Assembly (NCBI RefSeq): GCF_055900595.2
Contig: NZ_CM148325.1
Reading direction: 5' to 3' (one strand)
Length of the DNA stretch: 64,000 nt
Position 1 is the first letter of the stretch. Every line of letters starts with the position of its first letter. Under the pieces are notes generated by a model that was given only the letters and a program-made list of their open reading frames with translations, was not told the DNA's origin and searched no databases. A program made the translations under genes and the position numbers. Positions 160 to 16,320 of the stretch are shown here, in pieces.

Positions 160-1035
160 ATGGACTTTTTTACGTTATTTTCGCCAGATGGGGCCATGCT
201 GGAAACAAACGTGGTATGTATCGTTATCGCGTTGATGTTTCTTTATACCTTTGTGGGGATATGCGCGGGATTTGGTGGCGGTTTAACCACCATGCCACTC
301 GTCACGTTAATGCTCCCCGTAAAAATGGCAACACCACTTTCGGTAATTGTCGGCACCGCAACCGCCTTGTACGCCACCTGGCTATCACGCAAAGAAACGG
401 ATTGGCGCTCGGCAATGGTGCTGATTATTTTCTCATTTTTGGGAATACCCGTCGGTTTATATGCGCTGTCGTATTTACCCGACCATTTTATGAAAGTGGG
501 CTTAGGTGGATTTCTTATCCTCTACTCCTTTTACAGCATGTTTATTCCTCGCTTGCCGATTTATGACCGTAACTGGATCGCCGCACCTATCGGCGCAGTA
601 GCTGGCGCATTAGGCGCGGCGTTCTCAACCAACGGGCCGCCGATGGTTATCTACGGGATGCTACGTAACTTAGGTCCGGCGGCATTTCGCGGCACACTGA
701 ACGCCTTCTTCACCGCAAACAACATCGCGGTGATCGGCGGGCTGGCGACCAGCGGAATTTTGACTGTTTCTATCTTTAAACTGGTGCTGTTTTGTATTCC
801 CACCATGATCCTCGGTTCACTGATTGGACAATATGTGCATAAACGCATTTCGGTCAAAGTGTTTCGTGTGATGGTCTTTTTATTGTTGATTGCCTCCGGT
901 TCTATGTTGATAAAAGGTGCGTTGGGAATTCCCGCTGCTGCCGCACTTCTGCCTCCGTTTACCTTGTTAGTTATACTGCAACTGGCATTTGGTAAAAAAG
1001 TGGCGGCAATCCGCCGGGCTGAAGAAAGTAAATAA
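160..1035 (+). CDS. TauE/SafE (DUF81) family membrane anion exporter, sulfite/sulfonate-exporter-like
   Basis: 291-aa hydrophobic ORF with two internal halves, each carrying a Gly-rich helix motif (AGFGGG near the N-terminus; GAVAGALGAAFSTNGPP in the second half). AGGA lies 7 nt upstream of the ATG. An internal alternative start is possible. Confidence 0.6.
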   Translation: MDFFTLFSPDGAMLETNVVCIVIALMFLYTFVGICAGFGGGLTTMPLVTLMLPVKMATPLSVIVGTATALYATWLSRKETDWRSAMVLIIFSFLGIPVGLYALSYLPDHFMKVGLGGFLILYSFYSMFIPRLPIYDRNWIAAPIGAVAGALGAAFSTNGPPMVIYGMLRNLGPAAFRGTLNAFFTANNIAVIGGLATSGILTVSIFKLVLFCIPTMILGSLIGQYVHKRISVKVFRVMVFLLLIASGSMLIKGALGIPAAAALLPPFTLLVILQLAFGKKVAAIRRAEESK

Positions 1036-1141
1036 TCATTATGCGGGTTTTAATTTATACCTTCACACATTCTTTAATTAATGAAACCTGTAATAACAGG
1101 ATGGCATGAAATATTAGTTTTATACTCTATGGAGATTATTT

Positions 1142-3178
1142 ATGGATACGCCACGCCCACAGTTATTAGATTTTCAATTTCATCAGAATAACGACAGTTT
1201 TACTCTACGTTTTCAAGACCGTCTTATTTTAATCCATAGCAAAGATAATCCTTGCTTATCGATTGGCTCAGGTATAGCGGATATCGATATGTTCCGCGGT
1301 AATTTCAGCATTAAAGATAAATTGCAGGAGAAAATTGCGCTGACCGACGCCATCGTCAGCCAGTCACCGGATGGCTGGTTAATCCATTTCTGCCGTGGTT
1401 CTGACATTAGCGCCACGCTGCATATCTCTACTGACGAACAAGGCCGTTTAGTGCTGAAACTGCAAAACGATGATCGTCACCATAACCGCATCTGGCTGCG
1501 TCTCGCCGCACAACCAGAGGACCATATCTACGGCTGCGGCGAACAATTCTCCTACTTTGATCTGCGCGGCAAACCGTTCCCGCTATGGACCAGTGAACAA
1601 GGCGTTGGTCGCAACAAACAAACCTATGTCACCTGGCAGGCCGACTGCAAAGAGAACGCGGGCGGCGACTATTACTGGACTTTCTTCCCGCAGCCTACTT
1701 TTGTCAGCACGCAGAAGTATTACTGCCATGTCGATAACAGCTGCTATATGAACTTCGACTTCAGTGCTCCGGAATACCATGAACTGGCATTGTGGGAAGA
1801 CAATGCCACCCTGCGTTTTGAATGTGCGGACACATACATCTCCCTGTTGGAAAAATTAACCGCCCTGCTGGGACGTCAGCCAGAACTGCCCGACTGGATT
1901 TATGACGGGGTAACGCTAGGTATTCAGGGCGGGACAGATGTATGCCAGAAGAAACTGGACACCATGCGTAACGCGGGCGTGAAGGTCAACGGCATCTGGG
2001 CGCAGGACTGGTCCGGGATCCGTATGACCTCTTTTGGCAAACGTGTGATGTGGAACTGGAAGTGGAACAGTGAAAACTACCCACAGTTAGATTCCCGCAT
2101 CAAGCAATGGAAAGAAGAAGGCGTGCAGTTCCTCGCCTACATCAACCCGTATGTTGCCAGCGATAAAGATCTCTGCGAAGAAGCGGCGCAACATGGCTAT
2201 CTGGCAAAAGATGCCTCTGGCGGTGACTATCTGGTGGAATTTGGGGAGTTTTACGGCGGCGTTGTCGATTTGACCAATCCTGAAGCCTATTCCTGGTTTA
2301 AAGAGGTCATCAAGAAAAACATGATCGAATTGGGCTGCGGCGGCTGGATGGCAGATTTTGGCGAATATTTGCCGACCGATACGTATCTGCATAACGGCGT
2401 TAGCGCCGAAATTATGCATAACGCCTGGCCCGCACTGTGGGCGAAATGTAACTACGAAGCCCTTGAAGAAACGGGCAAGCTTGGCGAGATCCTTTTCTTT
2501 ATGCGCGCCGGTTCTACCGGTAGCCAGAAATACTCCACCATGATGTGGGCGGGCGACCAGAACGTCGACTGGAGTCTGGACGATGGCCTGGCGTCGGTTG
2601 TTCCGGCGGCGCTCTCGCTGGCGATGACCGGGCATGGCCTGCATCACAGTGACATTGGCGGTTACACCACCCTGTTTGAGATGAAGCGCAGCAAAGAGCT
2701 GCTGCTGCGCTGGTGCGATTTCAGCGCCTTCACGCCGATGATGCGCACCCACGAAGGTAACCGTCCTGGCGACAACTGGCAGTTTGACGGCGACGCGGAA
2801 ACCATCGCCCATTTTGCCCGTATGACCACCGTCTTCACCACCCTGAAACCTTACCTCAAAGACGCCGTCGCGCAGAACGCGAAGTCCGGTCTGCCCGTTA
2901 TGCGCCCGCTGTTCCTGCATTACGAAGACGATGCACACACCTACACCCTGAAATATCAGTACCTGCTGGGCCGCGACATTCTGGTCGCTCCGGTGCACGA
3001 GCAAGGTCGCAGCGACTGGACGCTCTATCTGCCAGAGGATAACTGGGTCCACACCTGGAGCGGAGAAACCTTCCACGGCGGAGAAGTCACCGTTGAAGCG
3101 CCCATCGGCAAACCGCCGGTCTTTTATCGCGCCGACAGCGAATGGGCTGCACTGTTCGCCTCGTTAAAAAGCATCTAA
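1142..3178 (+). CDS. yihQ: Sulfoquinovosidase (GH31 alpha-glucosidase family)
   Basis: 678-aa ORF matching my recollection of E. coli YihQ in length and sequence; GGAG precedes the ATG. Confidence 0.9.
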   Translation: MDTPRPQLLDFQFHQNNDSFTLRFQDRLILIHSKDNPCLSIGSGIADIDMFRGNFSIKDKLQEKIALTDAIVSQSPDGWLIHFCRGSDISATLHISTDEQGRLVLKLQNDDRHHNRIWLRLAAQPEDHIYGCGEQFSYFDLRGKPFPLWTSEQGVGRNKQTYVTWQADCKENAGGDYYWTFFPQPTFVSTQKYYCHVDNSCYMNFDFSAPEYHELALWEDNATLRFECADTYISLLEKLTALLGRQPELPDWIYDGVTLGIQGGTDVCQKKLDTMRNAGVKVNGIWAQDWSGIRMTSFGKRVMWNWKWNSENYPQLDSRIKQWKEEGVQFLAYINPYVASDKDLCEEAAQHGYLAKDASGGDYLVEFGEFYGGVVDLTNPEAYSWFKEVIKKNMIELGCGGWMADFGEYLPTDTYLHNGVSAEIMHNAWPALWAKCNYEALEETGKLGEILFFMRAGSTGSQKYSTMMWAGDQNVDWSLDDGLASVVPAALSLAMTGHGLHHSDIGGYTTLFEMKRSKELLLRWCDFSAFTPMMRTHEGNRPGDNWQFDGDAETIAHFARMTTVFTTLKPYLKDAVAQNAKSGLPVMRPLFLHYEDDAHTYTLKYQYLLGRDILVAPVHEQGRSDWTLYLPEDNWVHTWSGETFHGGEVTVEAPIGKPPVFYRADSEWAALFASLKSI

Positions 3179-3223
3179 TCACGTCCGCCCGTGGGGAAAC
3201 TCACGGGCACAGGGAGAACAACG

Positions 3224-4609
3224 ATGAGTCACATCACAACGGAAGATCCGGCTACTTTACGCCTGCCCTTTAAAGAGAAACTCTCTTACGGTATCGGCGA
3301 TCTGGCCTCTAACATCCTGCTGGATATCGGCACGCTTTATCTTTTGAAGTTTTATACCGACGTTCTGGGGCTGCCCGGTACCTATGGCGGCATTATCTTT
3401 TTGATTTCGAAGTTCTTTACTGCGTTTACCGATATGGGTACCGGCATCATGCTCGATTCCCGACGCAAGATCGGTCCAAAAGGTAAGTTCCGTCCTTTTA
3501 TTCTGTATGCGTCATTCCCGGTCACCTTACTGGCGATCGCCAACTTTGTCGGCACACCGTTTGATGTCACCGGTAAAACGGTGATGGCCACTATCCTGTT
3601 TATGCTCTACGGGCTGTTTTTCAGCATGATGAACTGCTCTTATGGCGCAATGGTCCCCGCTATTACCAAAAACCCCAACGAACGCGCATCACTGGCGGCA
3701 TGGCGTCAGGGTGGCGCTACATTGGGCCTGCTGCTTTGTACGGTGGGATTCGTGCCGGTTATGAATCTTATCGAGGGTAATCAGCAACTTGGCTATATCT
3801 TCGCCGCCACGCTGTTTTCACTGTTCGGCCTGCTGTTTATGTGGATCTGCTATTCGGGCGTGAAAGAGCGTTATGTCGAAACGCAACCTGCAAATCCGGC
3901 GCAAAAGCCAGGCTTGTTGCAGTCTTTCCGCGCAATTGCCGGTAACCGCCCGCTGTTCATTTTGTGCATTGCTAACCTCTGTACCTTAGGGGCATTTAAC
4001 GTCAAGCTCGCCATTCAGGTCTATTACACCCAGTACGTGCTTAACGATCCCATCCTGTTGTCATATATGGGATTTTTCAGCATGGGCTGTATTTTCATCG
4101 GCGTGTTCCTGATGCCTGGTGCAGTCAGACGTTTTGGTAAGAAGAAGGTCTATATCGGCGGCCTGCTGATTTGGGTGCTGGGCGATCTGCTCAACTATTT
4201 CTTCGGCGGCGGCTCGGTCAGTTTTGTGGCGTTCTCCTGCCTGGCATTCTTCGGCTCGGCGTTTGTTAACAGCCTGAACTGGGCACTGGTTTCCGACACC
4301 GTCGAGTACGGCGAGTGGCGCACCGGCGTTCGTTCGGAAGGTACGGTCTACACCGGCTTCACCTTCTTTCGCAAAGTATCTCAGGCGCTGGCAGGTTTCT
4401 TCCCAGGCTGGATGCTGACGCAAATCGGCTATGTGCCAAACGTGGCGCAGGCTGACCATACCATCGAAGGTTTACGCCAGCTGATCTTCATCTACCCAAG
4501 CGCACTGGCGGTAGTCACCATTGTTACGATGGGTTGCTTCTACAGTCTGAACGAGAAAATGTACGTCCGCATTGTTGAAGAAATAGAAGCCCGTAAACGC
4601 ACGGCATAA
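3224..4609 (+). CDS. yihP: GPH-family sugar:cation symporter (putative DHPS/sulfoquinovose transporter)
   Basis: Start placed at internal ATG (MSHITTEDP) preceded by GGGAG; 461 aa, multi-TM, paralogous to the next gene. Confidence 0.85.
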   Translation: MSHITTEDPATLRLPFKEKLSYGIGDLASNILLDIGTLYLLKFYTDVLGLPGTYGGIIFLISKFFTAFTDMGTGIMLDSRRKIGPKGKFRPFILYASFPVTLLAIANFVGTPFDVTGKTVMATILFMLYGLFFSMMNCSYGAMVPAITKNPNERASLAAWRQGGATLGLLLCTVGFVPVMNLIEGNQQLGYIFAATLFSLFGLLFMWICYSGVKERYVETQPANPAQKPGLLQSFRAIAGNRPLFILCIANLCTLGAFNVKLAIQVYYTQYVLNDPILLSYMGFFSMGCIFIGVFLMPGAVRRFGKKKVYIGGLLIWVLGDLLNYFFGGGSVSFVAFSCLAFFGSAFVNSLNWALVSDTVEYGEWRTGVRSEGTVYTGFTFFRKVSQALAGFFPGWMLTQIGYVPNVAQADHTIEGLRQLIFIYPSALAVVTIVTMGCFYSLNEKMYVRIVEEIEARKRTA

Positions 4610-4617
4610 ATAATAAA

Positions 4618-4636
4618 CAACGCCCTGCGGGGCGTT
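4618..4636 (+). terminator. Short GC stem-loop between yihP and yihO (weak terminator/attenuator)
   Basis: aacgccctgcggggcgtt inverted repeat immediately after the yihP stop; no strong T-tract follows. Confidence 0.3.
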
Positions 4637-4649
4637 ATAAGGAGTGATT

Positions 4650-6053
4650 ATGTCTGACCATAATCCACTGACATTAAAACTGAATCTGCGGGAAAAAATC
4701 GCTTATGGCATGGGCGACGTCGGTTCGAATTTAATGCTTAGCATCGGCACTCTGTATCTCCTCAAATTTTATACCGATGAATTAGGGATGCCTGCTTACT
4801 ATGGCGGGATTATCTTTCTGGTGGCAAAATTCTTTACCGCGTTTACCGATATGCTCACCGGATTTTTACTCGACTCGCGGAAAAATATTGGGCCTAAAGG
4901 CAAATTTCGTCCCTTTATTTTATATGCAGCGGTTCCGGCGGCGTTAATTGCAACGCTCCAGTTTATCGCCACCACTTTTAGTTTGCCGATTAAAACGACG
5001 ATTGCCACCGCGCTGTTTATGATGTTTGGACTTTCATACAGTCTGATGAACTGCTCGTATGGCGCGATGATTCCAGCAATTACCAAAAACCCCAATGAGC
5101 GCGCGCAGCTTGCGGCTTACCGCCAGGGTGGTGCAACCATAGGGCTATTGATTTGTACCGTAGCATTTATTCCACTGCAGTCGCTTTTTTCTGACTCCAC
5201 TGTCGGTTATGCCTGCGCGGCACTGATGTTCTCCATTGGTGGCTTTATTTTTATGATGCTGTGCTACAGAGGCGTCAAAGAGCATTATGTGGACACGACG
5301 CCAACCGGACATAAAGCCAGTATTCTCAAATTTTTTTGCGCGATATTTCGTAATCCGCCATTGCTGGTTTTATGCATTGCTAACCTGTGTACCCTGGCGG
5401 CATTTAATATCAAACTGGCAATTCAGGTCTATTACACCCAGTATGTGCTGAATGATATTAATTTATTGTCGTGGATGGGATTCTTCAGTATGGGATGCAT
5501 CCTCATCGGCGTATTGCTGGTGCCATTAACTGTAAAATGTTTTGGTAAAAAACAGGTTTATTTAGCTGGCATGGTGCTGTGGGCGGTGGGGGATATCCTG
5601 AATTATTTCTGGGGCAGTAACTCTTTCACTTTCGTCATGTTCTCTTGTGTCGCCTTTTTTGGTACGGCCTTTGTGAACAGCCTGAACTGGGCGTTAGTTC
5701 CTGACACCGTAGATTACGGTGAATGGAAAACCGGTATTCGTGCCGAAGGTTCTGTTTATACTGGTTATACCTTCTTTCGTAAAATTTCTGCCGCACTTGC
5801 TGGCTTCTTGCCAGGCATTATGCTGACGCAAATCGGTTATGTTCCCAACATCGCGCAAAGCGATGCAACATTACAGGGTTTGCGTCAGCTCATTTTTATT
5901 TGGCCTTGTGCGCTGGCGATAATTGCTGCATTGACGATGGGATTCTTTTACACGCTCAATGAAAAACGTTTTGCGTTAATTATTGAGGACATCAACCAAC
6001 GTAAAAATAAAGAGATTGAGACAAAAGAAAAAACTGCTTCCGTAACGTTATAA
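4650..6053 (+). CDS. yihO: GPH-family sulfoquinovose transporter
   Basis: 467 aa from ATG at 4650 (MSDHNPL) with AAGGAG 6 nt upstream; the ORF track begins at an in-frame GTG at 4644. Confidence 0.85.
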   Translation: MSDHNPLTLKLNLREKIAYGMGDVGSNLMLSIGTLYLLKFYTDELGMPAYYGGIIFLVAKFFTAFTDMLTGFLLDSRKNIGPKGKFRPFILYAAVPAALIATLQFIATTFSLPIKTTIATALFMMFGLSYSLMNCSYGAMIPAITKNPNERAQLAAYRQGGATIGLLICTVAFIPLQSLFSDSTVGYACAALMFSIGGFIFMMLCYRGVKEHYVDTTPTGHKASILKFFCAIFRNPPLLVLCIANLCTLAAFNIKLAIQVYYTQYVLNDINLLSWMGFFSMGCILIGVLLVPLTVKCFGKKQVYLAGMVLWAVGDILNYFWGSNSFTFVMFSCVAFFGTAFVNSLNWALVPDTVDYGEWKTGIRAEGSVYTGYTFFRKISAALAGFLPGIMLTQIGYVPNIAQSDATLQGLRQLIFIWPCALAIIAALTMGFFYTLNEKRFALIIEDINQRKNKEIETKEKTASVTL

Positions 6054-6120
6054 ATGTCAATAGCCGCTATTTCCATCCTGATGGGTGGCGGCCCCCCTAC
6101 GTTAAAAAAATGGACTTATT

Positions 6121-6813
6121 ATGAAAAAGATTAATGCAATAATTTTATTATCTTCTCTGACCTCTGCCTCGGTATTTGCTGGCGCATACGTCGAAAACAG
6201 GGAGGCATATAATCTCGCCTCCGATCAGGGCGAGGTTATGCTACGTGTGGGTTATAACTTCGATATGGGCGCGGGTATCATGTTAACCAATACCTACAAC
6301 TTTCAGCGCGAAGATGAACTAAAACATGGATATAACGAAATTGAAGGCTGGTATCCGTTATTTAAACCAACCGATAAATTAACCATCCAGCCCGGTGGAT
6401 TAATTAATGATAAGAGCGCCGGTTCCGGTGGTGCAGTATATCTGGACGTCAACTATAAATTTGTACCATGGTTTAATCTGACAGTGCGAAATCGCTATAA
6501 CCATAATAACTACAGTTCAACAGATTTGAACGGGGAGCTGGATAATAATGACACCTATGAAATTGGTACCTACTGGAATTTCAAAATCACCGATAAATTC
6601 TCCTATACATTTGAGCCACATTATTTTATACGCGTAAATGACTTTAATAGCAGCAATGGAAAAGATCATCATTGGGAAATCACTAATACCTTCCGTTACC
6701 GTATTAATGAACACTGGCTGCCTTATTTCGAATTACGCTGGTTAGACCGCAACGTCGAGCCGTATCACCGCGAGCAAAACCAGATTCGTATCGGAACGAA
6801 GTATTTCTTCTGA
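6121..6813 (+). CDS. ompL: Outer membrane porin L
   Basis: 230-aa ORF with N-terminal signal peptide (MKKINAIILLSSLTSASVFA) and C-terminal aromatic residue typical of beta-barrel proteins. Confidence 0.85.
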   Translation: MKKINAIILLSSLTSASVFAGAYVENREAYNLASDQGEVMLRVGYNFDMGAGIMLTNTYNFQREDELKHGYNEIEGWYPLFKPTDKLTIQPGGLINDKSAGSGGAVYLDVNYKFVPWFNLTVRNRYNHNNYSSTDLNGELDNNDTYEIGTYWNFKITDKFSYTFEPHYFIRVNDFNSSNGKDHHWEITNTFRYRINEHWLPYFELRWLDRNVEPYHREQNQIRIGTKYFF

Positions 6814-7025
6814 TGTGAAAATGTAAAAAGTCGCTGATATGGACTGCCCCCCATAAAGTTGGACAGTTCAGGTTAAGCGGCTTTTTACACAGATATTCAC
6901 AATATAAATAACTCCCCATAATTATATAACCACGTTGATTATAAAATATTCCTCGTCCTCTCTATCAAAGTCATTGACTACCAGGTAAGATCTTTTCCAC
7001 CGCAACACTCACAAGGAATGAGAAA

Positions 7026-7874
7026 ATGGAAAAGAAATTTTTTATGGATTGGGATAATGAAATCCCGCAAGAAGAGTTTATTAACAATATTTTAGCCGAT
7101 GAAGACCTGCCTAAAATCCGCTCTCTGATTATTGGTCGTTGGGGGGAGTGCTGGGATGAGGAAAGTTGCCAACCAATAATCGACATGTTTGTTGAACATG
7201 CCGAACGCTTTGCTCATCTCGAATCCCTATTTATCGGCGATATGGAAAGCGAAGAGTGTGAAATTTCGTGGATAAAACAAGGGGATTATTCTCGTCTGTA
7301 TGCTGCGCTGCCGAACCTCAAAAAGCTGACAATTAAAGGTACTCAGGGCCTGGAACTGGGAGAAATCGCCCATGACAAACTGGAGCATCTGGAAATTATC
7401 TCTGGCGGTACGCCGTGTGACGTGTTCGCCTCATTGCAAAATGCCCAACTGCCTGCGTTAAAAACACTTATCGTTTATATTGGCGTTGAGAATTATGGTT
7501 TTGATGCATCGCTGGATATCGTAATGAAGCTGGCGTCGAAATCCCTCTTCCCGAGCCTGACGCATCTTGGCCTGGTGAACAGCGAAGAGCAAAACGAAAT
7601 CGTCCGCCGCGTGCTGGAAAGCGACATTCTGCCGCAACTGGAAGTGCTGGCACTCTCCTGCGGTACGCTTACCGACGAAGGTGCAGAGCATCTTCTCAAA
7701 CATGCCGATCGCCTTAGCCATCTGAAACTGCTGGATTTGTACCATCATTACCTGACAGAAGAGATGCAGAAAAAACTGCAAAAAACACTGACATGTACTC
7801 TCGAATTATCAGAAGCGCTAACGCCTGAAGTCTATGATGACGAAATTTATATGCATGCGATGTATACCGAATAA
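7026..7874 (+). CDS. Leucine-rich-repeat-like acidic cytoplasmic protein (I recall the family being labelled STM4015-like)
   Basis: 282-aa ORF with no signal peptide; repeated L-P-x-L-K-x-L / L-x-x-L-x-L segments (LPNLKKLTIKG, LEHLEIISGG, LPALKTLIVYIG, FPSLTHLGLVNS, LPQLEVLALSCG, LSHLKLLDL); AAGGA 8 nt upstream of ATG. Confidence 0.7.
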   Translation: MEKKFFMDWDNEIPQEEFINNILADEDLPKIRSLIIGRWGECWDEESCQPIIDMFVEHAERFAHLESLFIGDMESEECEISWIKQGDYSRLYAALPNLKKLTIKGTQGLELGEIAHDKLEHLEIISGGTPCDVFASLQNAQLPALKTLIVYIGVENYGFDASLDIVMKLASKSLFPSLTHLGLVNSEEQNEIVRRVLESDILPQLEVLALSCGTLTDEGAEHLLKHADRLSHLKLLDLYHHYLTEEMQKKLQKTLTCTLELSEALTPEVYDDEIYMHAMYTE

Positions 7875-7934
7875 ATGACATTTATTGGGAGAGAGTCATC
7901 TCTCCCATTATTTATCACAGAAAAGGAATTCTTC

Positions 7935-8921
7935 GTGATTACGCTAATTGGTCATCCTGAAAGCAAACGCACATTTTATTTTTGCCAGGCAGCGTCACGC
8001 TTACAGGAACATATCAACGTAGTGAGCTATGATCAAGCACTTACCCTGCTCTTAAATAAAGGCATGGTAAAAATCGATCCCCCCTTACATCAGGAAACAG
8101 ATATTCGCTTAATTAATACGGTTAGCCAAAACTATATTACTTTTTTACAAAAAATGGCTACCAGAAGGGAGATCCGTTTTATTAACTCACCAGAAGGTAT
8201 TATTCATCTTCTGGATAAACGCCACTGTAAGCAACGATTAGTCGAACACGCGATCCCGACACCGCCAATATTAGCGGATGATATCCGTAGCTACGATCAA
8301 CTGATCGCCTGTATGCGCAGCGAAAAGGTTTATCGCGTGTTTATTAAGCCGAATTTCGGATCAGGGGCCGCCGGGGTGCTGGCTTTGAGTCTACATCCCG
8401 GCGATAACCGTCAGGTGCTTTATTGCGCCATCCAGGTTGCAGGTGACAGGCTGGTGAACAGTAAACATATTATCCGCTATGAAAACAGCGGTGATATTAC
8501 GTTGATTGTGAATGCTATTTTACAACAAGACAATATTATCGAACGCTGGCTGGCAAAAGCCAGAGTGGGCAATAAAAGCTACGATTTACGCATCGTGTAC
8601 GTTAATGGTGAAATCGTCTGGCGGGTTGTCAGAACATCATCACAGCCGATCACCAATTTACATTTACAAAATGAAGCTATCCGTTTTGCCGATCTTAATT
8701 TACCCGTAGAAAAAGTAGCTGAAATTGATACGCTTTGTCTCAACGCCATGACCCTCTATCCGGACGTACACATTGCCGGGCTTGACGTATTACTCACGCA
8801 AAATTTAACACCCTATATTATCGAAATTAACGGCCAGGGCGATCTTATTTATCAGGACACCTGCGAAAAAAACAAAATTTATCAACGCCAGATTCAGGTA
8901 ATGAGAGAACATCATGTATAA
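7935..8921 (+). CDS. ATP-grasp-like protein (I recall the family being labelled STM4014-like)
   Basis: ORF 7875-8921; start placed at in-frame GTG 7935 because AAGGA lies 7 nt upstream, but the ATG at 7875 immediately after the preceding stop is an alternative. The ATP-grasp assignment is by resemblance only. Confidence 0.55.
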   Translation: MITLIGHPESKRTFYFCQAASRLQEHINVVSYDQALTLLLNKGMVKIDPPLHQETDIRLINTVSQNYITFLQKMATRREIRFINSPEGIIHLLDKRHCKQRLVEHAIPTPPILADDIRSYDQLIACMRSEKVYRVFIKPNFGSGAAGVLALSLHPGDNRQVLYCAIQVAGDRLVNSKHIIRYENSGDITLIVNAILQQDNIIERWLAKARVGNKSYDLRIVYVNGEIVWRVVRTSSQPITNLHLQNEAIRFADLNLPVEKVAEIDTLCLNAMTLYPDVHIAGLDVLLTQNLTPYIIEINGQGDLIYQDTCEKNKIYQRQIQVMREHHV

Positions 8922-9786
8922 CGTAACAGACGAAGTACCGGAAAATACCCGCACGGCAATCCATTCCTGCGATGGCGAAATCAATCTGAATGATTTAATT
9001 GCCAGGGAAGCCAATATCCTGTTTGTGGTGCTTGATTCCCTGCGTTTTGATATTGCGTTTCAGGAACAAGAGGCGGGAAATACACCAAATATTAACCGCT
9101 ATGGTCGCTGGATAAAGTGTGAAGCCGCTGGCAATTTTACCTGGCCTTCGCATCATTCGATGTTCTCTGGTTTTATGCCTAAGCCGCTGGAAGCTGCACC
9201 TGGTCATTCAATGCTCTTTTTCCCGAAAGATATTGGTTTAGGTCGTTTAGGGCCAAAAAATGCGTTCGCGTTCAGCGAAGAGACGTGGATTAAAGGGCTG
9301 GAAAACAAAGGTTACCGCACTATCTGCGTGGGTGGCGTCTCCTTTTTTAATAACCGCTCAGGGATGGGAAAAGTGTTCCCGGCGATGTTTAAAGAGAGTT
9401 ACTGGTATCCTAATTTCTCCTGCACGGTGAAAGAGAGCATGGATAATCAGCTCACCTTAATTAACAAAAAGGTGAACGCTGAACAGCCGCTGATGATGTA
9501 TATCAATATCGACACCATTCATTATCCGAATCATTTTTATATTGAAAATGCCAAACCTGGCGATACGGTAGAAACTCACGCCGCTGCCCTGCATTATATT
9601 GATGCCAGAATCGAAAAACTTTTCGATATCTTTCGGCAAACCGGGCGGGAGACGTTAGTTATTCTCTGTTCCGATCATGGCACCTGCTACGGGGAAGACG
9701 GTAAATATTTCCACAGTTTTAACCATCCGATTGTGAATACCGTACCCTATTTTCACTTTGTGTTAGACGGCAAAGACCATGAATAA
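8914..9786 (+). CDS. Alkaline-phosphatase-superfamily metallo-hydrolase (phosphodiesterase/phosphomutase/sulfatase-like core)
   Basis: 290-aa ORF with N-terminal FVVLDSLRFD motif typical of AlkP-core metal-binding enzymes; start overlaps the upstream stop by 8 nt. Confidence 0.7.
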   Translation: MYNVTDEVPENTRTAIHSCDGEINLNDLIAREANILFVVLDSLRFDIAFQEQEAGNTPNINRYGRWIKCEAAGNFTWPSHHSMFSGFMPKPLEAAPGHSMLFFPKDIGLGRLGPKNAFAFSEETWIKGLENKGYRTICVGGVSFFNNRSGMGKVFPAMFKESYWYPNFSCTVKESMDNQLTLINKKVNAEQPLMMYINIDTIHYPNHFYIENAKPGDTVETHAAALHYIDARIEKLFDIFRQTGRETLVILCSDHGTCYGEDGKYFHSFNHPIVNTVPYFHFVLDGKDHE

Positions 9787-11017
9787 TGAATCGATTTATC
9801 AGCAATATATGTACAGTTACCCGCATAAGACCGCTTATCGGGAATTAAACAATATTGCTTTTGCGGATGTGAAATCGCGTATTTACGAGCATAAAACACA
9901 TCTCTATATTCATATGCCTTTTTGCCAGAGCCGCTGCGGGTTTTGTAATCTCTTTACCTGCACGGGGGCAGACAATGCCTTTATCGACAACTACATAGAA
10001 GCAATTATTATCCAGGCCCGGCAAATGCAACTTGCGCCTGTAGACTGGGCCAGTTTTACCATTGGCGGCGGTACGCCACTACTGCTTAATACCGGGCAAC
10101 TGTCACGGTTGTTTCGCGGGGTGTTTGACGAATTACAGGTCGATGCGCAGATTTTTAAGGCAATTGAAACATCGCCTTCCGATACCACCGCCGAAAAGGT
10201 CGCGTTATTGCGCCAGCTTGCGGTAAACCGCGTCAGTATTGGCATTCAGAGTTTTAACGATCTGGAACTTGCCACATTACACCGCCGCCATAGTGCGGAA
10301 AATGCCCATCGGGCGCTGGAGCTACTGCGCAGGGGTAATTTCCCGATAATCAATATTGATATTATTTACGGTATTCCTGGTCAAACAGCCGCAAGTTTAA
10401 TGGCGTCGCTTAATCAAGCATTAGATTATCAGCCTGACGAACTGTTTCTGTACCCGCTATATAACATGCCGCGTCAGCCGGATATGTATAGCCTCTATAT
10501 TGAAGCCCGCGATCGCTTATTGCATGAAGGTTATACGCAAACGTCAATGCGCCGTTTTGTGCGGGTGAATAATGATTCGGCGGCTGAAAGTTGTGGCTTT
10601 GAAAATTCGCTGGCGCTTGGCGCGGGCGGGCGCAGTTATCTTGGCAATTTACATTACTGCACGCCGTGGTCGCAAAACCAGCCCGCATCGCGGCAAATTG
10701 TCACGGATTTTATCGCCCGGCCAGATAAGACCCAGATTCACCACGGCTATGTACTTTCACAAGCAGAAATGAAGCGGCGTTTTATTATCAAGAATCTCTT
10801 TTTCTATAAGGGGCTTTCGTTACGGGATTATCAGCACCAGTTCTTCTCTGAGGTATTAAGCGATTTTCCCCTGCTGGGCGATTTCATCAAACAAGATTAC
10901 TGCCACCAGCAGGATAATCGTATTCTGCTCACCGCGCAGGGTTTAGCGCTTTCGGACCAGCTTGGCCCGCTGTTTATCTCCCCGGAAGTTCGCAGGCTGG
11001 AGACGCATAAACGATGA
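9779..11017 (+). CDS. HemN/HemW-like radical SAM protein
   Basis: 412-aa ORF with YIHMPFCQSRCGFC (C49-x3-C53-x2-C56) radical SAM motif in HemN-like context; start overlaps the upstream stop. Confidence 0.8.
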   Translation: MNNESIYQQYMYSYPHKTAYRELNNIAFADVKSRIYEHKTHLYIHMPFCQSRCGFCNLFTCTGADNAFIDNYIEAIIIQARQMQLAPVDWASFTIGGGTPLLLNTGQLSRLFRGVFDELQVDAQIFKAIETSPSDTTAEKVALLRQLAVNRVSIGIQSFNDLELATLHRRHSAENAHRALELLRRGNFPIINIDIIYGIPGQTAASLMASLNQALDYQPDELFLYPLYNMPRQPDMYSLYIEARDRLLHEGYTQTSMRRFVRVNNDSAAESCGFENSLALGAGGRSYLGNLHYCTPWSQNQPASRQIVTDFIARPDKTQIHHGYVLSQAEMKRRFIIKNLFFYKGLSLRDYQHQFFSEVLSDFPLLGDFIKQDYCHQQDNRILLTAQGLALSDQLGPLFISPEVRRLETHKR

Positions 11018-11871
11018 CGCTCAAGCAGATCCAGACGCTGATTTATCGCGGCGAGATAAAGTCGTGTAATTATCGCTGTGGTTATTGCCCTTTTCATAAA
11101 CAAGACCGCAATGATAAACAGCAGGATGAAGTGGCATTATGGCGCATGGTTGAACATTTACCGGCGCAGGGTTCACCATTAAATGTATTTATTACGCCCT
11201 ACGGCGAAGCATTGCGTTATCGTTATTATATGGCGGCGATGGCGGAAATCAGCCGCTATTCCCATGTGCAGGCGGTGGGTATTCAGACCAACGCCTCTTT
11301 TAATTTATCCACCTTAGTCGCGACTTTTCAGCACTCTCAGGGCGATTTAGCAAAGCTGCGGCTGTGGTGTTCGTTTCATCCTTCCCAGGCAAGTAAAGAA
11401 GTTTTCCTTAAACAGTTACTGGCAATTAAGGACACGGGGATTACCTGTTCTGTGGGGGCCGTCGCCAGCGTAGCCGACTATGACGAATTACAGTGGTTAC
11501 GCGCGCATCTTCCTCCCGATATCTATTTCTGGCTAAACGCCAATGAGCGCGATAAAAGGCCCACCAGCGACGAAAGAAATAGCCAGTTTCAGTTGCTGGA
11601 CCCGCTTTATTATCTGGAAACCAGCCTCTGGCCTGCCAATGTCGAGTTTTGTCTGGGCGGCAAAAAGAGCGTGTTTATGAATGCTGATGGCGATCTCTTC
11701 GCCTGTAATATCAGCAAAATTAAGATTGGCAATTTATATCAACAGCAACTTTCATCTCCGTCTTGTATGTCCAGGCACTGTCACTGTTATCTGGCTTATC
11801 ACCTGCGTGAGGATATTCCGGCCCTCTCACAATTTGATGCTGAACGCTGCTTTCGGATCTTCTCGTTATGA
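11014..11871 (+). CDS. Small radical SAM protein with C-terminal Cys/His cluster
   Basis: 285-aa ORF; CNYRCGYC (C18-x3-C22-x2-C25) near N-terminus; C231, C251, C256, C258 near C-terminus; ATGA overlap with upstream stop. Confidence 0.75.
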   Translation: MTLKQIQTLIYRGEIKSCNYRCGYCPFHKQDRNDKQQDEVALWRMVEHLPAQGSPLNVFITPYGEALRYRYYMAAMAEISRYSHVQAVGIQTNASFNLSTLVATFQHSQGDLAKLRLWCSFHPSQASKEVFLKQLLAIKDTGITCSVGAVASVADYDELQWLRAHLPPDIYFWLNANERDKRPTSDERNSQFQLLDPLYYLETSLWPANVEFCLGGKKSVFMNADGDLFACNISKIKIGNLYQQQLSSPSCMSRHCHCYLAYHLREDIPALSQFDAERCFRIFSL

Positions 11872-12563
11872 TCTGGCGGTTAATCGCGCTCGATTTAGAC
11901 GGCACATTGCTGAACAGCAAGAAGATGATTTCCCCTGCGTCTGTTTCGGCACTGCAAAGCGCACAACAGGCAGGTGTGAAAATTATCCTCGCCACCGGAC
12001 GTTCGCACAGCGAAGCCCTGCCTTATTACCAACAATTGCAGTTAACCGAGCCGATGATTTGCTGTAACGGCAGCTATCTTTATCATCCGCGCCAGCGGCA
12101 AATATTGCGTCCGCTGGCGCTTGATATCCACAAGGTGGAAAGGCTACGACTCTGGTTTTCACAACAAATATTGCAGCCAAATATTTATACGTACGATGAT
12201 TTTGTTTTGCAGATTAGCCTGATACACCGCAAGGCTTCGTTATTGCGCCAGACAGAGGAATTTGCCCGACAAGAATTATCGCTGGCCTGTAGCTGGTCCT
12301 GGCATCATCAACTGGATATTACACAGGTGGGGTGTGAGAAAGGCAAAAGTCTGGCCTGGTATGCCCGACAGCAAAATATCGTGCTGGATGAAATCATCGC
12401 CTTTGGCGATAACGATAATGATGCGGGGATGCTGCGGATGGTAGGCAAAGGGATTGCGATGGGCAATGGCAGTTCGCTGGCAAAAGTCAGTGCTGACCGC
12501 GTTATTGGTCACAACAACACAGATGCTATTGCGGATTTTCTTGATGCGCAGGGTTTCAGATGA
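11868..12563 (+). CDS. HAD-superfamily Cof-type phosphatase
   Basis: 231-aa ORF with N-terminal ALDLDGTLL motif (HAD motif I) and GDNDND near the C-terminus; ATGA overlap with upstream stop. Confidence 0.8.
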   Translation: MIWRLIALDLDGTLLNSKKMISPASVSALQSAQQAGVKIILATGRSHSEALPYYQQLQLTEPMICCNGSYLYHPRQRQILRPLALDIHKVERLRLWFSQQILQPNIYTYDDFVLQISLIHRKASLLRQTEEFARQELSLACSWSWHHQLDITQVGCEKGKSLAWYARQQNIVLDEIIAFGDNDNDAGMLRMVGKGIAMGNGSSLAKVSADRVIGHNNTDAIADFLDAQGFR

Positions 12564-12604: not shown

Positions 12605-12637
12605 GCAAAAAACCTGCCATCGCTGGCAGGTTTTTTA
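12605..12637. terminator. Bidirectional rho-independent terminator (typA and the upstream operon)
   Basis: A-tract, cctgccatcgctggcagg hairpin, then TTTTTT, between convergent genes. Confidence 0.8.
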
Positions 12638-12653
12638 TGACTAAAAAACGAAA

Positions 12654-14477
12654 TTAATCGTCTTTCGGTGCGCGGTTGGCGCGACGACGATCGTTTTCCG
12701 TCAGGTGACGTTTACGAATACGGATAGAGGTCGGAGTCACTTCTACCAGTTCGTCATCATCGATGAACTCCAGCGCTTGTTCCAGCGTCATGCGGATAGG
12801 CGGAACCAGAACAACGGCTTCGTCAGTACCGGAAGCACGCATGTTGGTCAGTTTCTTACCGGTCAGACAGTTTACAGTCAGGTCGTTAGAACGGCTGTGA
12901 ATACCGATAATCTGACCTTCGTAAACTTCTGCACCGTGACCGAGGAACAGCTTACCGCGATCCTGCAGACCGAACAGCGCGAACGCGACCGCTTTACCCT
13001 GACCGTTAGAGATCAGTACGCCGTTCTGACGCTGACCCACTTCACCCGGACGCACGTCGTCGTAGTGGCTGAAGGTGGAGTACAACAGACCCGTACCAGA
13101 GGTCATGGTCATGAACTCAGAACGGAAGCCAATCAGACCACGGCTTGGGATCACGTAGTCGAGACGTACGCGGCCTTTACCGTCTGGATTCATGTTTTTC
13201 AGGTCGCCTTTACGTTCGCCCAGCGCCTGCATCACAGAACCCTGATGCTGTTCTTCAACGTCCAGCGTCACGTTTTCATACGGCTCTTGTTTACGACCGT
13301 CGATTTCACGGAAGATAACTTTCGGACGGGATACCGCCAGTTCGAAACCTTCACGACGCATGTTTTCGATCAGAACAGACAGGTGCAGTTCGCCACGACC
13401 AGAAACGCGGAACGCATCGGCGTCTTCAGTTTCTTCTACGCGCAGCGCAACGTTGTGTACCAGTTCTTTGTTCAGACGATCCAGAATCTGACGAGACGTT
13501 ACGAACTTACCTTCTTTACCGCAGAACGGCGAGGTGTTAACGCAGAAGAACATAGAAACGGTCGGCTCATCAACGGAGAGTGCCGGCAGCGCTTCAACGT
13601 TTTGCGTGTCGCAAACGGTGTCAGAAATGTTCAGTTCGCCCAGGCCCGTGATCGCCACGATATCGCCAGCTTCCGCCAGATCGGTTTCGATACGTTCCAG
13701 ACCGAGGTGGCCCAGCACTTTACCGACTTTCGCGTTGCGGGTTTTGCCTTCGCTATCGATGATAGTAACTTGCTGGTTCGGCTTCACTTTACCGCGCTTG
13801 ATGCGGCCAATGCCGATAACGCCAACATAGCTGTTGTAATCGAGCTGAGAAATCTGCATCTGGAACGGACCGTCAAGGTCAACGTCCGGCGCAGGAACGT
13901 GGTCAACAATTGCCTGATACAGCGGGGTCATGTCTTCCGCCATATCTTCGTGGTCCAGACCGGCGATACCGTTCAGCGCAGAAGCGTAAACGATCGGGAA
14001 GTCCAGCTGCTCGTCGGTCGCGTCGAGGTTAACGAACAGGTCGAATACCTGATCCACAACCCAGTCAGGACGCGCGCCAGGGCGGTCAACTTTGTTGATA
14101 ACAACAATTGGCTTCAGGCCGTAAGCAAACGCTTTTTTGGTTACGAAGCGCGTTTGCGGCATCGGGCCGTCAAATGCGTCAACCACCAGCAGCACTGAGT
14201 CTACCATGGACATTACACGTTCAACTTCACCACCGAAGTCGGCGTGCCCCGGGGTATCAACGATGTTGATACGGTAATCATTCCATTTGATAGCGGTGTT
14301 TTTCGCGAGGATGGTAATCCCACGCTCTTTCTCCAAATCGTTGGAGTCCATCACGCGCTCTTGGGTTTCGGCACGAGAGTCGAACGTACCGGATTGTTGG
14401 AGCAGCTTGTCTACCAGGGTGGTTTTACCATGGTCTACGTGCGCGATGATGGCGATATTACGCAATTTTTCGATCAC
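12654..14477 (-). CDS. typA: Ribosome-associated translational GTPase BipA/TypA
   Basis: 607-aa ORF with G-domain motifs ([18 protein letters not shown]). Confidence 0.95.
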
Positions 14478-14626
14478 AACTTTGCCTCAGGCATTAGAAA
14501 TAGCGCGTTATTGTACACGGATTAATCGCACTACAAAACAGGATCACAAACATCCTCCGCAAACAAGTATTGCAGAGTCCCTTTGTGATCGCTTTCACGG
14601 AGCATAAAAAGGGTTATCCAAAGGTC

Positions 14627-14720
14627 ATTGCACCAATATGGTGCTTAATGTTTCCATTGAAGCACTATATTGGTGCAATATTCACATCGTGGTGCAGCCC
14701 TTTTGCACGATGGTGCGCAT
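14627..14720 (+). promoter_or_regulatory. NtrC (NRI) enhancer binding sites upstream of glnA
   Basis: Repeated TGCACC-N5-GGTGCA-like dyads (tgcaccaatatggtgc, gcactatattggtgca, ggtgcagcccttttgcac). Confidence 0.7.
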
Positions 14721-14749
14721 GATAACGCCTTTTAGGGGCAATTTAAAAG

Positions 14750-14766
14750 TTGGCACAGTTTTCGCT
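14750..14766 (+). promoter_or_regulatory. Sigma-54 promoter glnAp2
   Basis: tTGGCACagttttCGCt matches the -24 GG / -12 GC sigma-54 consensus about 85 bp upstream of glnA. Confidence 0.8.
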
Positions 14767-14849
14767 TTATCTTTTTTACGGCGACACGGCCAAAATAATT
14801 GCAGATTTCGTTACCACGACGACCATGACCAATCCAGGAGAGTTAAAGT

Positions 14850-16259
14850 ATGTCCGCTGAACACGTACTGACGATGCTGAACGAGCACGAAGTGAAGTTT
14901 GTTGATTTGCGCTTCACCGATACCAAAGGTAAAGAACAGCACGTCACTATCCCTGCTCATCAGGTGAATGCTGAATTCTTCGAAGAAGGCAAAATGTTTG
15001 ACGGCTCCTCGATTGGCGGCTGGAAAGGCATTAACGAATCCGACATGGTGCTGATGCCAGACGCATCCACCGCAGTGATTGACCCGTTCTTCGCGGACTC
15101 TACCCTGATTATCCGTTGCGATATCCTTGAACCAGGCACCCTGCAAGGCTATGACCGTGACCCGCGTTCCATCGCGAAGCGCGCTGAAGATTACCTGCGT
15201 TCTACTGGCATTGCCGACACCGTACTGTTCGGGCCAGAACCTGAATTCTTCCTGTTCGATGACATCCGTTTCGGCGCGTCTATCTCCGGTTCTCATGTTG
15301 CCATCGACGATATCGAAGGTGCATGGAACTCCTCCACCAAATATGAAGGTGGTAACAAAGGTCACCGTCCGGCAGTGAAAGGCGGTTACTTCCCGGTTCC
15401 GCCGGTAGACTCTGCTCAGGATATCCGTTCTGAAATGTGTCTGGTGATGGAACAGATGGGACTGGTAGTTGAAGCCCATCACCACGAAGTAGCGACTGCT
15501 GGTCAGAACGAAGTGGCTACCCGCTTCAATACCATGACCAAAAAAGCTGACGAAATTCAGATCTACAAATATGTTGTGCACAACGTAGCACACCGCTTCG
15601 GTAAAACCGCGACCTTTATGCCAAAACCGATGTTCGGTGATAACGGCTCCGGTATGCACTGCCACATGTCACTGTCTAAAAACGGCGTCAACCTGTTCGC
15701 TGGCGACAAATATGCAGGTCTGTCTGAGCAGGCGTTGTACTACATTGGCGGCGTAATCAAACACGCTAAAGCAATTAACGCCCTGGCAAACCCGACCACC
15801 AACTCTTACAAGCGTCTGGTCCCGGGCTACGAAGCACCGGTAATGCTGGCTTACTCTGCGCGCAACCGTTCTGCGTCTATCCGTATTCCAGTGGTTTCTT
15901 CTCCGAAAGCACGTCGTATCGAAGTCCGTTTCCCGGACCCAGCGGCTAACCCGTACCTGTGCTTTGCTGCCCTGCTGATGGCCGGTCTTGATGGTATCAA
16001 GAACAAGATCCACCCAGGCGAAGCCATGGACAAAAACCTGTATGACCTGCCGCCAGAAGAAGCGAAAGAGATCCCACAGGTTGCAGGCTCTCTGGAAGAA
16101 GCACTGAACGAACTGGATCTGGACCGCGAGTTCCTGAAAGCCGGTGGCGTGTTCACTGACGAAGCCATTGATGCGTACATCGCTCTGCGTCGCGAAGAAA
16201 ATGACCGCGTGCGTATGACTCCGCATCCGGTAGAGTTTGAGCTGTACTACAGCGTCTAA
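14850..16259 (+). CDS. glnA: Glutamine synthetase
   Basis: 469-aa ORF recognised as E. coli GlnA. Confidence 0.95.
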
Positions 16260-16320
16260 TAGTTGAAGTTGTACTACCCGGTGCTAAGAAGGCCGGGATT
16301 TAGTTGCCGTGGAAACTTTC

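What the first reader, a model, noticed from the sequence alone, without database searches (positions are those of the whole stretch)
3224..6053. Tandem paralogous transporters yihP and yihO differ sharply in base composition
The two proteins are clearly homologous (for example GIIFLISKFFTAFTDMGTGIMLDSRRKIGPKGKFRPFILYA versus GIIFLVAKFFTAFTDMLTGFLLDSRKNIGPKGKFRPFILYA), yet yihO is visibly more AT-rich than yihP. This suggests the pair did not arise by recent in-place duplication, or that they evolve under different expression regimes.
Basis: seen in the sequence. Interest (0 to 1): 0.3.

Follow-up and report, generated by a model that had tools for sequence, protein, structure and literature searches.

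The report
Old transporter twins with different base composition
Two neighbouring sugar-transporter genes of the E. coli sulfoquinovose operon really do differ in base composition, but they are ancient duplicates with separate recombination histories and different evolutionary constraint, which is an ordinary finding.

Summary
yihP (3224-4609) has GC 0.518 and GC3 0.638; yihO (4650-6053) has GC 0.445 and GC3 0.488 (p=6e-6). The gap persists at conserved residues and is the largest between adjacent genes in the window. K-12 shows the same gap.

The two proteins are 64% identical GPH-family paralogues. Their duplication is ancient: the yihQ-yihP-yihO order and separate YihO and YihP clades occur across Enterobacterales.

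Codon adaptation does not explain the gap. yihP is enriched in GC-ending codons even where AT-ending codons are optimal. Published RNA-seq shows both genes co-induced, about 1.3-fold apart.

Two things appear to contribute:
- **A conserved gene-specific regime.** yihO is AT-richer than yihP in 59 of 61 genomes. It has 2-3 times higher dN/dS and fewer AT-to-GC changes.
- **Mosaic ancestry in Escherichia.** yihP belongs to one operon haplotype, while yihS, yihR and yihO belong to another. The breakpoint lies in the last ~25 codons of yihP, where a GC3 change point also falls (4513-4594).

The mosaic is not needed for the gap, because pure Salmonella haplotypes show the same ~0.15 difference. Interest is low to moderate.

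The parts
3224..4609 (+). yihP. A GPH-family MFS transporter, reported as the likely DHPS exporter. GC3 is 0.638. In Escherichia it carries the haplotype-B allele.
   Evidence: Annotation. Matches PF13347 and TIGR00792 above their cut-offs. Composition. At diagnostic sites it matches B 15 times and A twice. Role as stated in PMC6278857.
4650..6053 (+). yihO. The paralogous GPH-family transporter and the reported SQ importer. GC3 is 0.488. It carries the haplotype-A allele and evolves faster than yihP.
   Evidence: At diagnostic sites it matches A 24 times and B once. dN/dS is 0.049 versus 0.024 in Escherichia and is higher than for yihP in 10 of 11 genera. A delta-yihO mutant fails to grow on SQ, as cited in PMC6278857.
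4513..4600 (+). The GC3 change point and the inferred ancient recombination breakpoint, both in the last ~25 codons of yihP.
   Evidence: Change point at 4573 with a 2-lnL interval of 4513-4594. YihP residue 433 matches type B and residue 435 matches type A. The C-terminal KRTA and the yihO Shine-Dalgarno region match type A.
4619..4636 (+). Intercistronic GC-rich hairpin AACGCCC-TGCG-GGGCGTT. It lies between the yihP stop codon (4607-4609) and the yihO Shine-Dalgarno sequence (4639-4644).
   Evidence: Predicted folding energy is -17.9 kcal/mol, z=-3.4 against shuffles. A hairpin of at least 6 bp occurs at 43 of 55 yihP-yihO junctions, with compensatory stem changes. There is no Rfam match. 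Its function is only inferred.
1142..3178 (+). yihQ, the sulfoquinovosidase. GC3 is 0.639. It forms the GC3-rich side of the step together with yihP.
6121..6813 (+). ompL, a porin gene. GC3 is 0.452. It continues the GC3-poor domain that begins at yihO.
160..1035 (+). TauE/SafE-family gene between yihR and yihQ. It is the marker of operon haplotype A and is absent from K-12.

Best explanation
yihP and yihO are ancient tandem paralogues of the GPH transporter family in the sulfoquinovose operon. yihO is the reported SQ importer and yihP the likely DHPS exporter. The composition step at their junction is real. It reflects general GC-versus-AT pressure at silent sites, not codon adaptation. Two layers appear to produce it.

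1. A long-standing gene-specific regime. yihO is under weaker purifying selection and fixes fewer AT-to-GC changes. Under the AT-biased mutation typical of bacteria, it therefore sits at a lower GC3 than yihP in nearly every genome that has both genes. The mechanistic link between weaker constraint and lower GC3 is my inference.

2. Separate ancestry in Escherichia. The operon circulates among Enterobacteriaceae as at least two deeply diverged haplotypes. Type A carries tauE and is AT-richer; type B lacks tauE and is GC-richer. Escherichia has type A alleles at yihS, yihR and yihO, and it also carries tauE, the marker gene of type A. It has a type B allele at yihP. An old homologous-recombination breakpoint lies in the last ~25 codons of yihP, where GC3 drops.

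The duplication age, the GC-directional codon shift, the incongruent trees and the breakpoint location are shown by the analyses. The relative weight of the two layers is inferred.
For: Ancient duplication:
- The proteins are 64% identical and third positions are 44% identical.
- The tandem arrangement is conserved in 72 loci.
- YihO and YihP form two clades.

The shift is GC-directional:
- NNC versus NNT codons: 0.56 in yihP versus 0.35 in yihO (p=7e-4).
- AAG+GAG versus AAA+GAA: 0.47 versus 0.15 (p=0.007).
- GGC and CGC are also higher in yihP.

Conserved regime:
- GC3 of yihP exceeds that of yihO in 59 of 61 genomes, with a mean gap of 0.050 and the largest gaps (0.15-0.19) in Escherichia.
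- dN/dS is lower for yihP than for yihO in 10 of 11 genera.
- Among 7 Escherichia alleles, polarised AT-to-GC changes per AT site are 0.170 in yihP versus 0.052 in yihO (p=5e-4). The implied equilibrium GC3 is 0.39 versus 0.20.
- Across the operon genes, GC3 correlates with protein conservation (Spearman 0.77, p=0.009).

Mosaic ancestry:
- At diagnostic sites the window matches A at YihS 17 of 18 and YihR 9A:2B, matches B at YihP 15B:2A, and matches A at YihO 24A:1B.
- The YihO clade of Escherichia plus the A-type alleles has bootstrap 198/200. The YihP clade of A-type alleles excluding Escherichia has 199/200, and the alternative that includes Escherichia has 0/200.
- Sliding-window identities switch at the gene junction.
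- The YihP C-terminus and the yihO Shine-Dalgarno region are A-type, which coincides with the GC3 change point.
Against: - The mosaic is not needed to produce the gap. Both pure Salmonella haplotypes show about the same difference: type A 0.509 versus 0.365 and type B 0.661 versus 0.512. The share due to ancestry in Escherichia is therefore uncertain.
- The 61 genomes are not phylogenetically independent.
- Trees are neighbour-joining on corrected p-distances, not maximum likelihood. No formal recombination test (GARD or RDP) was run.
- Polarisation of substitutions used only 7 alleles, with a majority rule and E. whittamii as outgroup. Recombination among the alleles could distort the counts.
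- yihO is essential for growth on SQ according to the literature, so "weaker constraint" does not mean it is less needed.
- The force that holds GC3 higher in yihP (selection on GC, biased gene conversion or mutational context) is not identified.
Confidence: 0.6

Rival explanations
1. Different expression levels. yihP would be translated more than yihO, so translational selection for optimal codons raises its GC3 and CAI.
For: CAI is 0.361 for yihP versus 0.284 for yihO. yihO has more rare codons, 18 versus 8. RNA counts decline along the operon: yihQ ~690, yihP ~208, yihO ~159, ompL ~19. A conserved hairpin between the two genes could uncouple their mRNA fates.
Against: yihP is enriched in GC-ending codons even where AT-ending codons are optimal in E. 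coli: AAG/GAG 0.47 versus 0.15, with GGC over GGT and CGC over CGT. The mRNA levels differ only about 1.3-fold, and both genes are silent on glucose. Both CAI values lie within 1 sd of the window mean, 0.344 with sd 0.096.
Confidence: 0.1
2. Pure historical legacy. The yihO-ompL segment would be a fairly recent import from an AT-rich donor that has not yet drifted to the E. coli base composition.
For: There is a sharp change point at the junction. The low-GC3 domain continues through ompL and the strain-variable STM4015-4011 cluster. yihO has a different phylogenetic affinity from yihP. A-type alleles are AT-rich in Salmonella and in Citrobacter sp. wls619.
Against: Four-fold sites between Escherichia and every non-Escherichia allele are saturated at 0.27-0.52 for yihP and yihO, so no transfer is recent. 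Polarised changes show no AT-to-GC excess in yihO; its AT-to-GC rate is the lowest of the four genes. On the diagnostic sites, yihP rather than yihO is the odd gene within an otherwise A-type operon. The yihP-over-yihO gap recurs in 59 of 61 genomes and in both pure Salmonella haplotypes.
Confidence: 0.15
3. A regional effect unrelated to the genes themselves. The operon end next to a variable, AT-rich junction would sit in a nucleoid-protein-bound (H-NS-type) or low-recombination domain, which lowers GC3 in yihO and ompL.
For: GC3 falls stepwise toward the variable junction: yihQ 0.64, yihP 0.64, yihO 0.49, ompL 0.45, STM4014 0.43. At least three different gene contents follow ompL in E. coli strains. 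ompL is the GC3-poorest operon gene across species.
Against: No binding data were found; the literature search returned nothing. The yihP-over-yihO trend also holds in genomes where ompL is absent and the downstream context differs. This reading does not explain the higher dN/dS of yihO.
Confidence: 0.12
4. No real difference: sampling noise between two genes of ~460 codons.
For: None beyond the modest gene lengths.
Against: p=6e-6 for GC3 and p=2e-4 at conserved residues. The gap is reproduced in K-12 and five other alleles. 0 of 300 permutations reach the change-point score.
Confidence: 0.01

Closest known systems
E. coli K-12 yihO/yihP (b3876/b3877) of the sulfo-EMP (yih, csq) gene cluster
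   Same: Same genes, order and neighbours (yihQ upstream, ompL downstream). The proteins are 98-99% identical to K-12. The GC3 gap is the same, 0.655 versus 0.499.
   Different: The window allele is about 6% diverged in DNA from K-12 (dS ~0.25). It also carries tauE upstream of yihQ, and the STM4015-4011 cluster where K-12 has yihLMN.
Salmonella enterica SQ locus (STM4011-4015, ompL, yihO, yihP, yihQ, tauE-type)
   Same: The window has the same overall arrangement, including tauE and, by the RefSeq family names, the STM401x genes. The yihP-yihO GC3 gap is about the same, ~0.15.
   Different: Salmonella holds pure A and pure B haplotypes. Escherichia is A at yihS, yihR and yihO (and carries tauE) but B at yihP.
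GPH (glycoside-pentoside-hexuronide:cation symporter) family, e.g. MelB, UidB, YagG
   Same: Both proteins match TIGR00792 (536 and 527 bits against a cut-off of 231) and PF13347 end to end.
   Different: They score below the equivalog cut-offs for MelB, the glucuronide transporter and YagG. The assigned substrates, SQ and DHPS, are sulfonates. The assignments come from the literature, and the one for YihP is untested.
Mosaic operons formed by homologous recombination between diverged alleles; the 'evolutionarily labile yih cassette' of Kaznadzey et al. 2025
   Same: PMC12608037 reports long and short cassette forms scattered over the E. coli tree and invokes recombination. The haplotype mosaic seen here is the same kind of process.
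   Different: That paper deals with gene content in E. coli and Shigella. A term search of its main text found no mention of GC content, and the text returned did not describe A/B allele haplotypes or the yihP/yihO breakpoint.

Membership tests
GPH:cation symporter family (TIGR00792 / Pfam MFS_2 PF13347) | Full-length match to the family profile above the curated cut-off | tested here: met
   YihP scores 536.2 bits and YihO 526.9 bits against a cut-off of 231.35. PF13347 scores are 262 and 265 bits against a cut-off of 27, covering about positions 1-427 of the profile.
GPH:cation symporter family (TIGR00792 / Pfam MFS_2 PF13347) | Cation-coupled transport of a glycoside or related substrate | not testable with these tools
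   Only literature statements are available. YihO is called the SQ importer because a delta-yihO mutant does not grow on SQ. YihP is said to be 'most likely' the DHPS exporter (PMC6278857).
Sulfo-EMP (yih/csq) sulfoquinovose operon | Co-location with yihQ (sulfoquinovosidase), yihS, yihT, yihU, yihV and csqR | tested here: met
   [quoted passage not shown] The same order occurs in 60+ species.
Sulfo-EMP (yih/csq) sulfoquinovose operon | Induction by sulfoquinovose | not tested
   Shown for K-12 only, in published RNA-seq: log2 fold change of 5 or more for ompL, yihO and yihP (PMC12608037). Not tested for this strain.
Recent in-place tandem duplication | High nucleotide identity and unsaturated silent sites between the copies; duplication confined to one lineage | tested here: not met
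   Nucleotide identity is 66% and third-position identity 44%. Both copies occur across Enterobacterales as separate clades.
Recently acquired AT-rich genomic island (for yihO-ompL) | Atypical composition, a patchy presence limited to close relatives, and silent sites close to those of a donor | tested here: not met
   yihO GC3 is only 1.3 sd below the window mean. yihO is present wherever the long operon is. Four-fold sites against all non-Escherichia alleles are saturated. There is no AT-to-GC excess.

The most novel reading that the evidence does not exclude
The yihP/yihO junction may be a conserved module boundary of the sulfoquinovose operon. It carries a structured intercistronic hairpin, conserved with compensatory changes across Enterobacterales, that would separate the mRNA fates of yihQ-yihP and yihO-ompL. 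It is also where deeply diverged operon haplotypes (A and B) have been re-assorted. These haplotypes persist side by side within species such as Salmonella enterica: yihQ is nearly identical between them, while yihP, yihO and yihR are saturated at silent sites. That pattern would fit a long-lived trans-species polymorphism or repeated cross-species allele exchange in a nutrient-uptake operon.
Probability: 0.25. Interest if true: 0.45.

Novelty: already known. Interest (0 to 1): 0.25.

Why it matters
The genes and their operon are well known, and a GC3 gap of 0.15 between neighbours is within what E. coli genomes show. The value here is mainly corrective. The contrast is not evidence of a recent foreign insertion, nor of different expression. 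It marks an old paralogue pair with unequal constraint inside an operon reshuffled by recombination. For people working on sulfoquinovose catabolism, four by-products may be useful:
- the A and B operon haplotypes, with and without tauE;
- the breakpoint at the 3' end of yihP;
- natural yihP'-'yihO chimeras that leave a single transporter;
- a conserved hairpin in front of yihO.

These give handles for asking which transporter does what and how the distal genes are expressed.

Tried and rejected
- **Biopython tools.** The first tree script, using Biopython's neighbour-joining, timed out and I replaced it with a numpy version.
- **Clean O/P split.** An exact YihO/YihP bipartition was not recovered when all sequences were included (bootstrap 39 and 32 of 100). 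In the drawn tree the only visible misfit was one lone copy from a decaying Symbiopectobacterium genome, labelled YihO by best hit but grouping with YihP. I excluded it from the later single-gene trees and did not re-test the combined split.
- **A second E. coli yihO lineage.** I first read the "88% identical YihO" class in E. coli as a second allele lineage. The one genome of this kind that I examined has a yihP'-'yihO chimera whose size and expected identity fit that class, so I rejected that idea.
- **Recent transfer.** Four-fold-site identity to non-Escherichia alleles was examined as a test for recent transfer. The yihP and yihO values are at saturation, so it cannot date the events.
- **H-NS.** A literature search for ompL, yihO and H-NS together returned nothing.
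- **Rfam.** A scan of 3000-7100 at E-value up to 1 returned nothing.
- **Promoters and terminators.** The promoter scan found no more sites than shuffled sequence, and no + strand promoter-like site near the junction. The only terminator-like call at the junction is on the minus strand, and it is the same hairpin.
- **Searches that did not help.** The homologue search returned only YihO orthologues in its top 120 and gave no outgroup. I did not use the deep representative search or structure prediction, because the family assignment was not in doubt.
Full report
**What the window is.** Bases 3000-6900 are 99.9% identical to eight E. coli chromosomes, for example strain E400634. They are only 90-95% identical to most other E. 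coli genomes that carry the locus. RefSeq annotation of that genome, transferred to the window, gives the following genes:
- a TauE/SafE-family gene at 160-1035;
- yihQ at 1142-3178;
- yihP at 3224-4609;
- yihO at 4650-6053;
- ompL at 6121-6813;
- a cluster of STM4015- to STM4011-family genes plus a Cof-type hydrolase at 7026-12563;
- typA on the opposite strand.

K-12 has the same yihQ-yihP-yihO-ompL core. It lacks tauE and has yihLMN in place of the STM401x genes. The finding's coordinates match the two annotated genes exactly.

**Checking the observation.** The two proteins are 64% identical over 456 residues, and the quoted peptides are present. The composition figures are as follows.

| Measure | yihP | yihO | Test |
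|---|---|---|---|
| GC | 0.518 | 0.445 | p=1.4e-4 |
| GC1 | 0.508 | 0.448 | p=0.08 |
| GC2 | 0.408 | 0.398 | not significant |
| GC3 | 0.638 | 0.488 | p=6e-6 |
| GC3 at 284 conserved degenerate residues | 0.606 | 0.461 | 80 vs 39 discordant sites, p=2e-4 |

The last row rules out amino-acid content as the cause. Among 39 genes of the window from typA onward, GC3 averages 0.555 with sd 0.050. yihP exceeds all of them, and yihO lies 1.3 sd below the mean. The step of 0.150 is the largest of 49 adjacent-gene differences, whose median is 0.032. A maximum-likelihood single change point for third positions from yihQ to ompL falls at 4573, with a 2-lnL interval of 4513-4594. None of 300 permutations scored as well. 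The low-GC3 stretch continues through ompL and the STM401x genes. K-12 (0.655 versus 0.499) and five more Escherichia alleles show the same gap.

**Age of the duplication.** Third codon positions of the two genes are 44% identical, which is saturation. A scan of one genome per species returned 72 loci. Nearly all have yihQ-yihP-yihO in tandem, often followed by ompL. They span Escherichia, Salmonella, Citrobacter, Klebsiella, Enterobacter, Pantoea, Rahnella, Serratia, Yersinia, Hafnia, Pectobacterium and Budvicia, plus an Anaerobiospirillum genome. In a neighbour-joining tree the YihO and YihP sequences form two clades. The only visible exception is a lone copy in a decaying Symbiopectobacterium genome. 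The pair is therefore old, and both copies are kept under strong purifying selection, with dN/dS of 0.01-0.08. Both match the GPH symporter family above curated cut-offs. The literature calls YihO the SQ importer, because a delta-yihO mutant does not grow on SQ. It calls YihP the likely DHPS exporter (PMC6278857).

**Is it expression?** In K-12 the long cassette is silent on glucose and induced on SQ. Supplementary counts on SQ are yihQ 676/699, yihP 204/212, yihO 149/169 and ompL 25/13 (PMC12608037). The two genes have nearly equal length, so their mRNA levels differ about 1.3-fold. The codon shift is also not the one translational selection would make. yihP has more C-ending pyrimidine codons (0.56 versus 0.35). 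It also has more AAG+GAG (0.47 versus 0.15, p=0.007), GGC and CGC, although AAA, GAA, GGT and CGT are the optimal codons in E. coli. The lysine codons are striking: AAA:AAG is 9:9 in yihP and 23:0 in yihO. The difference is thus a general GC-versus-AT shift.

**A conserved tendency.** In 59 of 61 genomes with both genes, GC3 of yihP exceeds that of yihO. The mean gap is 0.050, and the largest gaps (0.15-0.19) are in Escherichia. These genomes are not independent samples, but the direction holds in many genera.
- YihO orthologues are less conserved: mean identity to the window protein is 77%, against 88.5% for YihP.
- dN/dS is higher for yihO in 10 of 11 genus-level comparisons, usually 2-3 times higher.
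- Across the operon genes, GC3 rises with protein conservation (Spearman 0.77, p=0.009).
- In seven Escherichia alleles, silent changes polarised with E. whittamii give AT-to-GC rates per AT site of 0.170 for yihP and 0.052 for yihO (p=5e-4). GC-to-AT rates are similar, 0.262 and 0.204.

There is therefore no sign that yihO is drifting up toward the genome average. The current substitution pattern maintains the gap.

**Mosaic ancestry.** Sliding-window protein identities showed that the nearest non-Escherichia relatives change at the gene junction. In YihP, E. coli is closest to the common Citrobacter, Klebsiella and Enterobacter type. In YihO, it is closest to Citrobacter sp. wls619 and the metagenome-assembled genome UBA5654.

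Two Salmonella enterica loci made the picture clearer. One carries tauE and is AT-rich, with yihP GC3 0.509 and yihO GC3 0.365; I call it type A. The other lacks tauE, with yihP 0.661 and yihO 0.512; I call it type B. Their yihQ genes are nearly identical (98% protein identity, four-fold-site identity 0.94). Their yihP, yihO and yihR genes, in contrast, are saturated at silent sites.

At amino-acid positions where A and B types differ consistently, the window matches as follows.

| Protein | Matches A | Matches B |
|---|---|---|
| YihS | 17 | 1 |
| YihR | 9 | 2 |
| YihP | 2 | 15 |
| YihO | 24 | 1 |

Bootstrapped trees agree. Escherichia YihO groups with the A-type alleles in 198 of 200 replicates. 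A-type YihP alleles form a clade that excludes Escherichia in 199 of 200 replicates, and they include Escherichia in 0 of 200.

The last diagnostic sites in YihP switch from B at residue 433 to A at residue 435. The C-terminal KRTA and the yihO ribosome-binding region also match type A. This places an old breakpoint at roughly 4520-4600, inside the GC3 change-point interval. Four-fold sites between Escherichia and all other genera are saturated for these genes, so the event is ancient and cannot be dated.

**Weighing the two layers.** The mosaic shows that the two genes have separate histories, and it explains why the step is so sharp and sits exactly at the junction. It is not required for the gap, however, because both pure Salmonella haplotypes show about 0.15 as well. 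I therefore rank the conserved gene-specific regime as the main cause and the ancestry switch as a contributor. The force that keeps GC3 higher in the more constrained gene is not identified here. It could be selection on GC, biased gene conversion or local context.

**Rivals.**
- Translational selection is contradicted by codon direction and by the RNA data.
- A recent AT-rich import is contradicted by silent-site saturation, by the lack of AT-to-GC excess, and by the fact that yihP, not yihO, is the odd gene within an otherwise A-type operon.
- A regional effect near the variable junction after ompL remains possible. I found no binding data, and it would not explain the higher dN/dS of yihO.
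- Chance is excluded.

**Verdict.** The genes and operon are already known, and the phenomenon (unequal constraint plus recombination mosaic) is ordinary. Interest is low to moderate. The by-products (A and B haplotypes, junction hairpin, natural chimeras) are modestly useful to people working on sulfoquinovose catabolism.

Noticed in passing
window 4619-4636 (junction 4610-4649): A GC-rich hairpin, AACGCCC-TGCG-GGGCGTT, sits between the yihP stop codon and the yihO Shine-Dalgarno sequence (-17.9 kcal/mol, z=-3.4). A hairpin of at least 6 bp is present at 43 of 55 yihP-yihO junctions across Enterobacterales, with compensatory stem changes (A-T/G-C swaps at stem positions 1, 2 and 6). Anaerobiospirillum has a hairpin plus a T-run at the same place. 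There is no Rfam match. It may be an mRNA-stability or attenuation element.
   Followed up: partly
L077 9001-10413 (E. coli 2014C-3051, NZ_CP027338.1): A single 470-aa transporter replaces the pair. Its first ~180 nt are yihP and the rest is yihO, so it is an unequal crossover in the conserved GGIIFL block. Its size and expected identity fit the class of E. coli proteins about 88% identical to YihO seen in the homologue search.
   Followed up: yes
window 160-1035: A TauE/SafE sulfite-exporter-family gene lies between yihR and yihQ. It is absent from K-12 but present in O157:H7 and in strains JNE25-005, 131 and A32. In other genera it sits either here or between yihQ and yihP.
   Followed up: partly
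window 7026-12563: Downstream of ompL the window has the Salmonella-like STM4015-STM4011 cluster (two radical-SAM proteins and a hydrolase) plus a Cof-type HAD hydrolase. K-12 and O157 have yihNML there, and strains 131 and A32 have nothing before typA. This makes three alternative contents at one junction. The STM4015-family gene is intact in the window (282 aa) but frameshifted in strain E400634.
   Followed up: no
window 1084-6823 versus 12607-16271: The SQ locus of this strain is 93.9% identical in DNA to K-12 (dS about 0.25, with proteins 96-99% identical), while the adjacent typA-glnA region is 98% identical. Only 8-10 of ~3,900 E. coli genomes carry this allele at 99% or more. The locus is a deeply diverged allele within the species.
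   Followed up: partly
L079 and L080 (Salmonella enterica loci): There are two operon haplotypes within one species. yihQ is nearly identical between them (four-fold-site identity 0.94), but yihP (0.43), yihO (0.51) and yihR (0.29) are saturated, and tauE is present in only one. GC3 of the tauE-type alleles is 0.10-0.15 lower.
   Followed up: partly
L065, L067, L070 (Chimaeribacter): After yihP, these genomes carry a third, distant family member (47-48% identical to YihP) where yihO would be. I used it as the outgroup.
   Followed up: no
window 27145-28575 (yihF): This gene has the lowest GC3 in the window (0.395; GC 0.415), lower than yihO or ompL. It is flanked by genes with ordinary composition.
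   Followed up: no
L001 5995-6873 (strain E400634; upstream of the window): yihT, the sulfofructose-phosphate aldolase gene, is annotated as a pseudogene with an internal stop in the genome 99.9% identical to the window. The pathway may therefore be broken in this lineage, although the transporters are intact.
   Followed up: no
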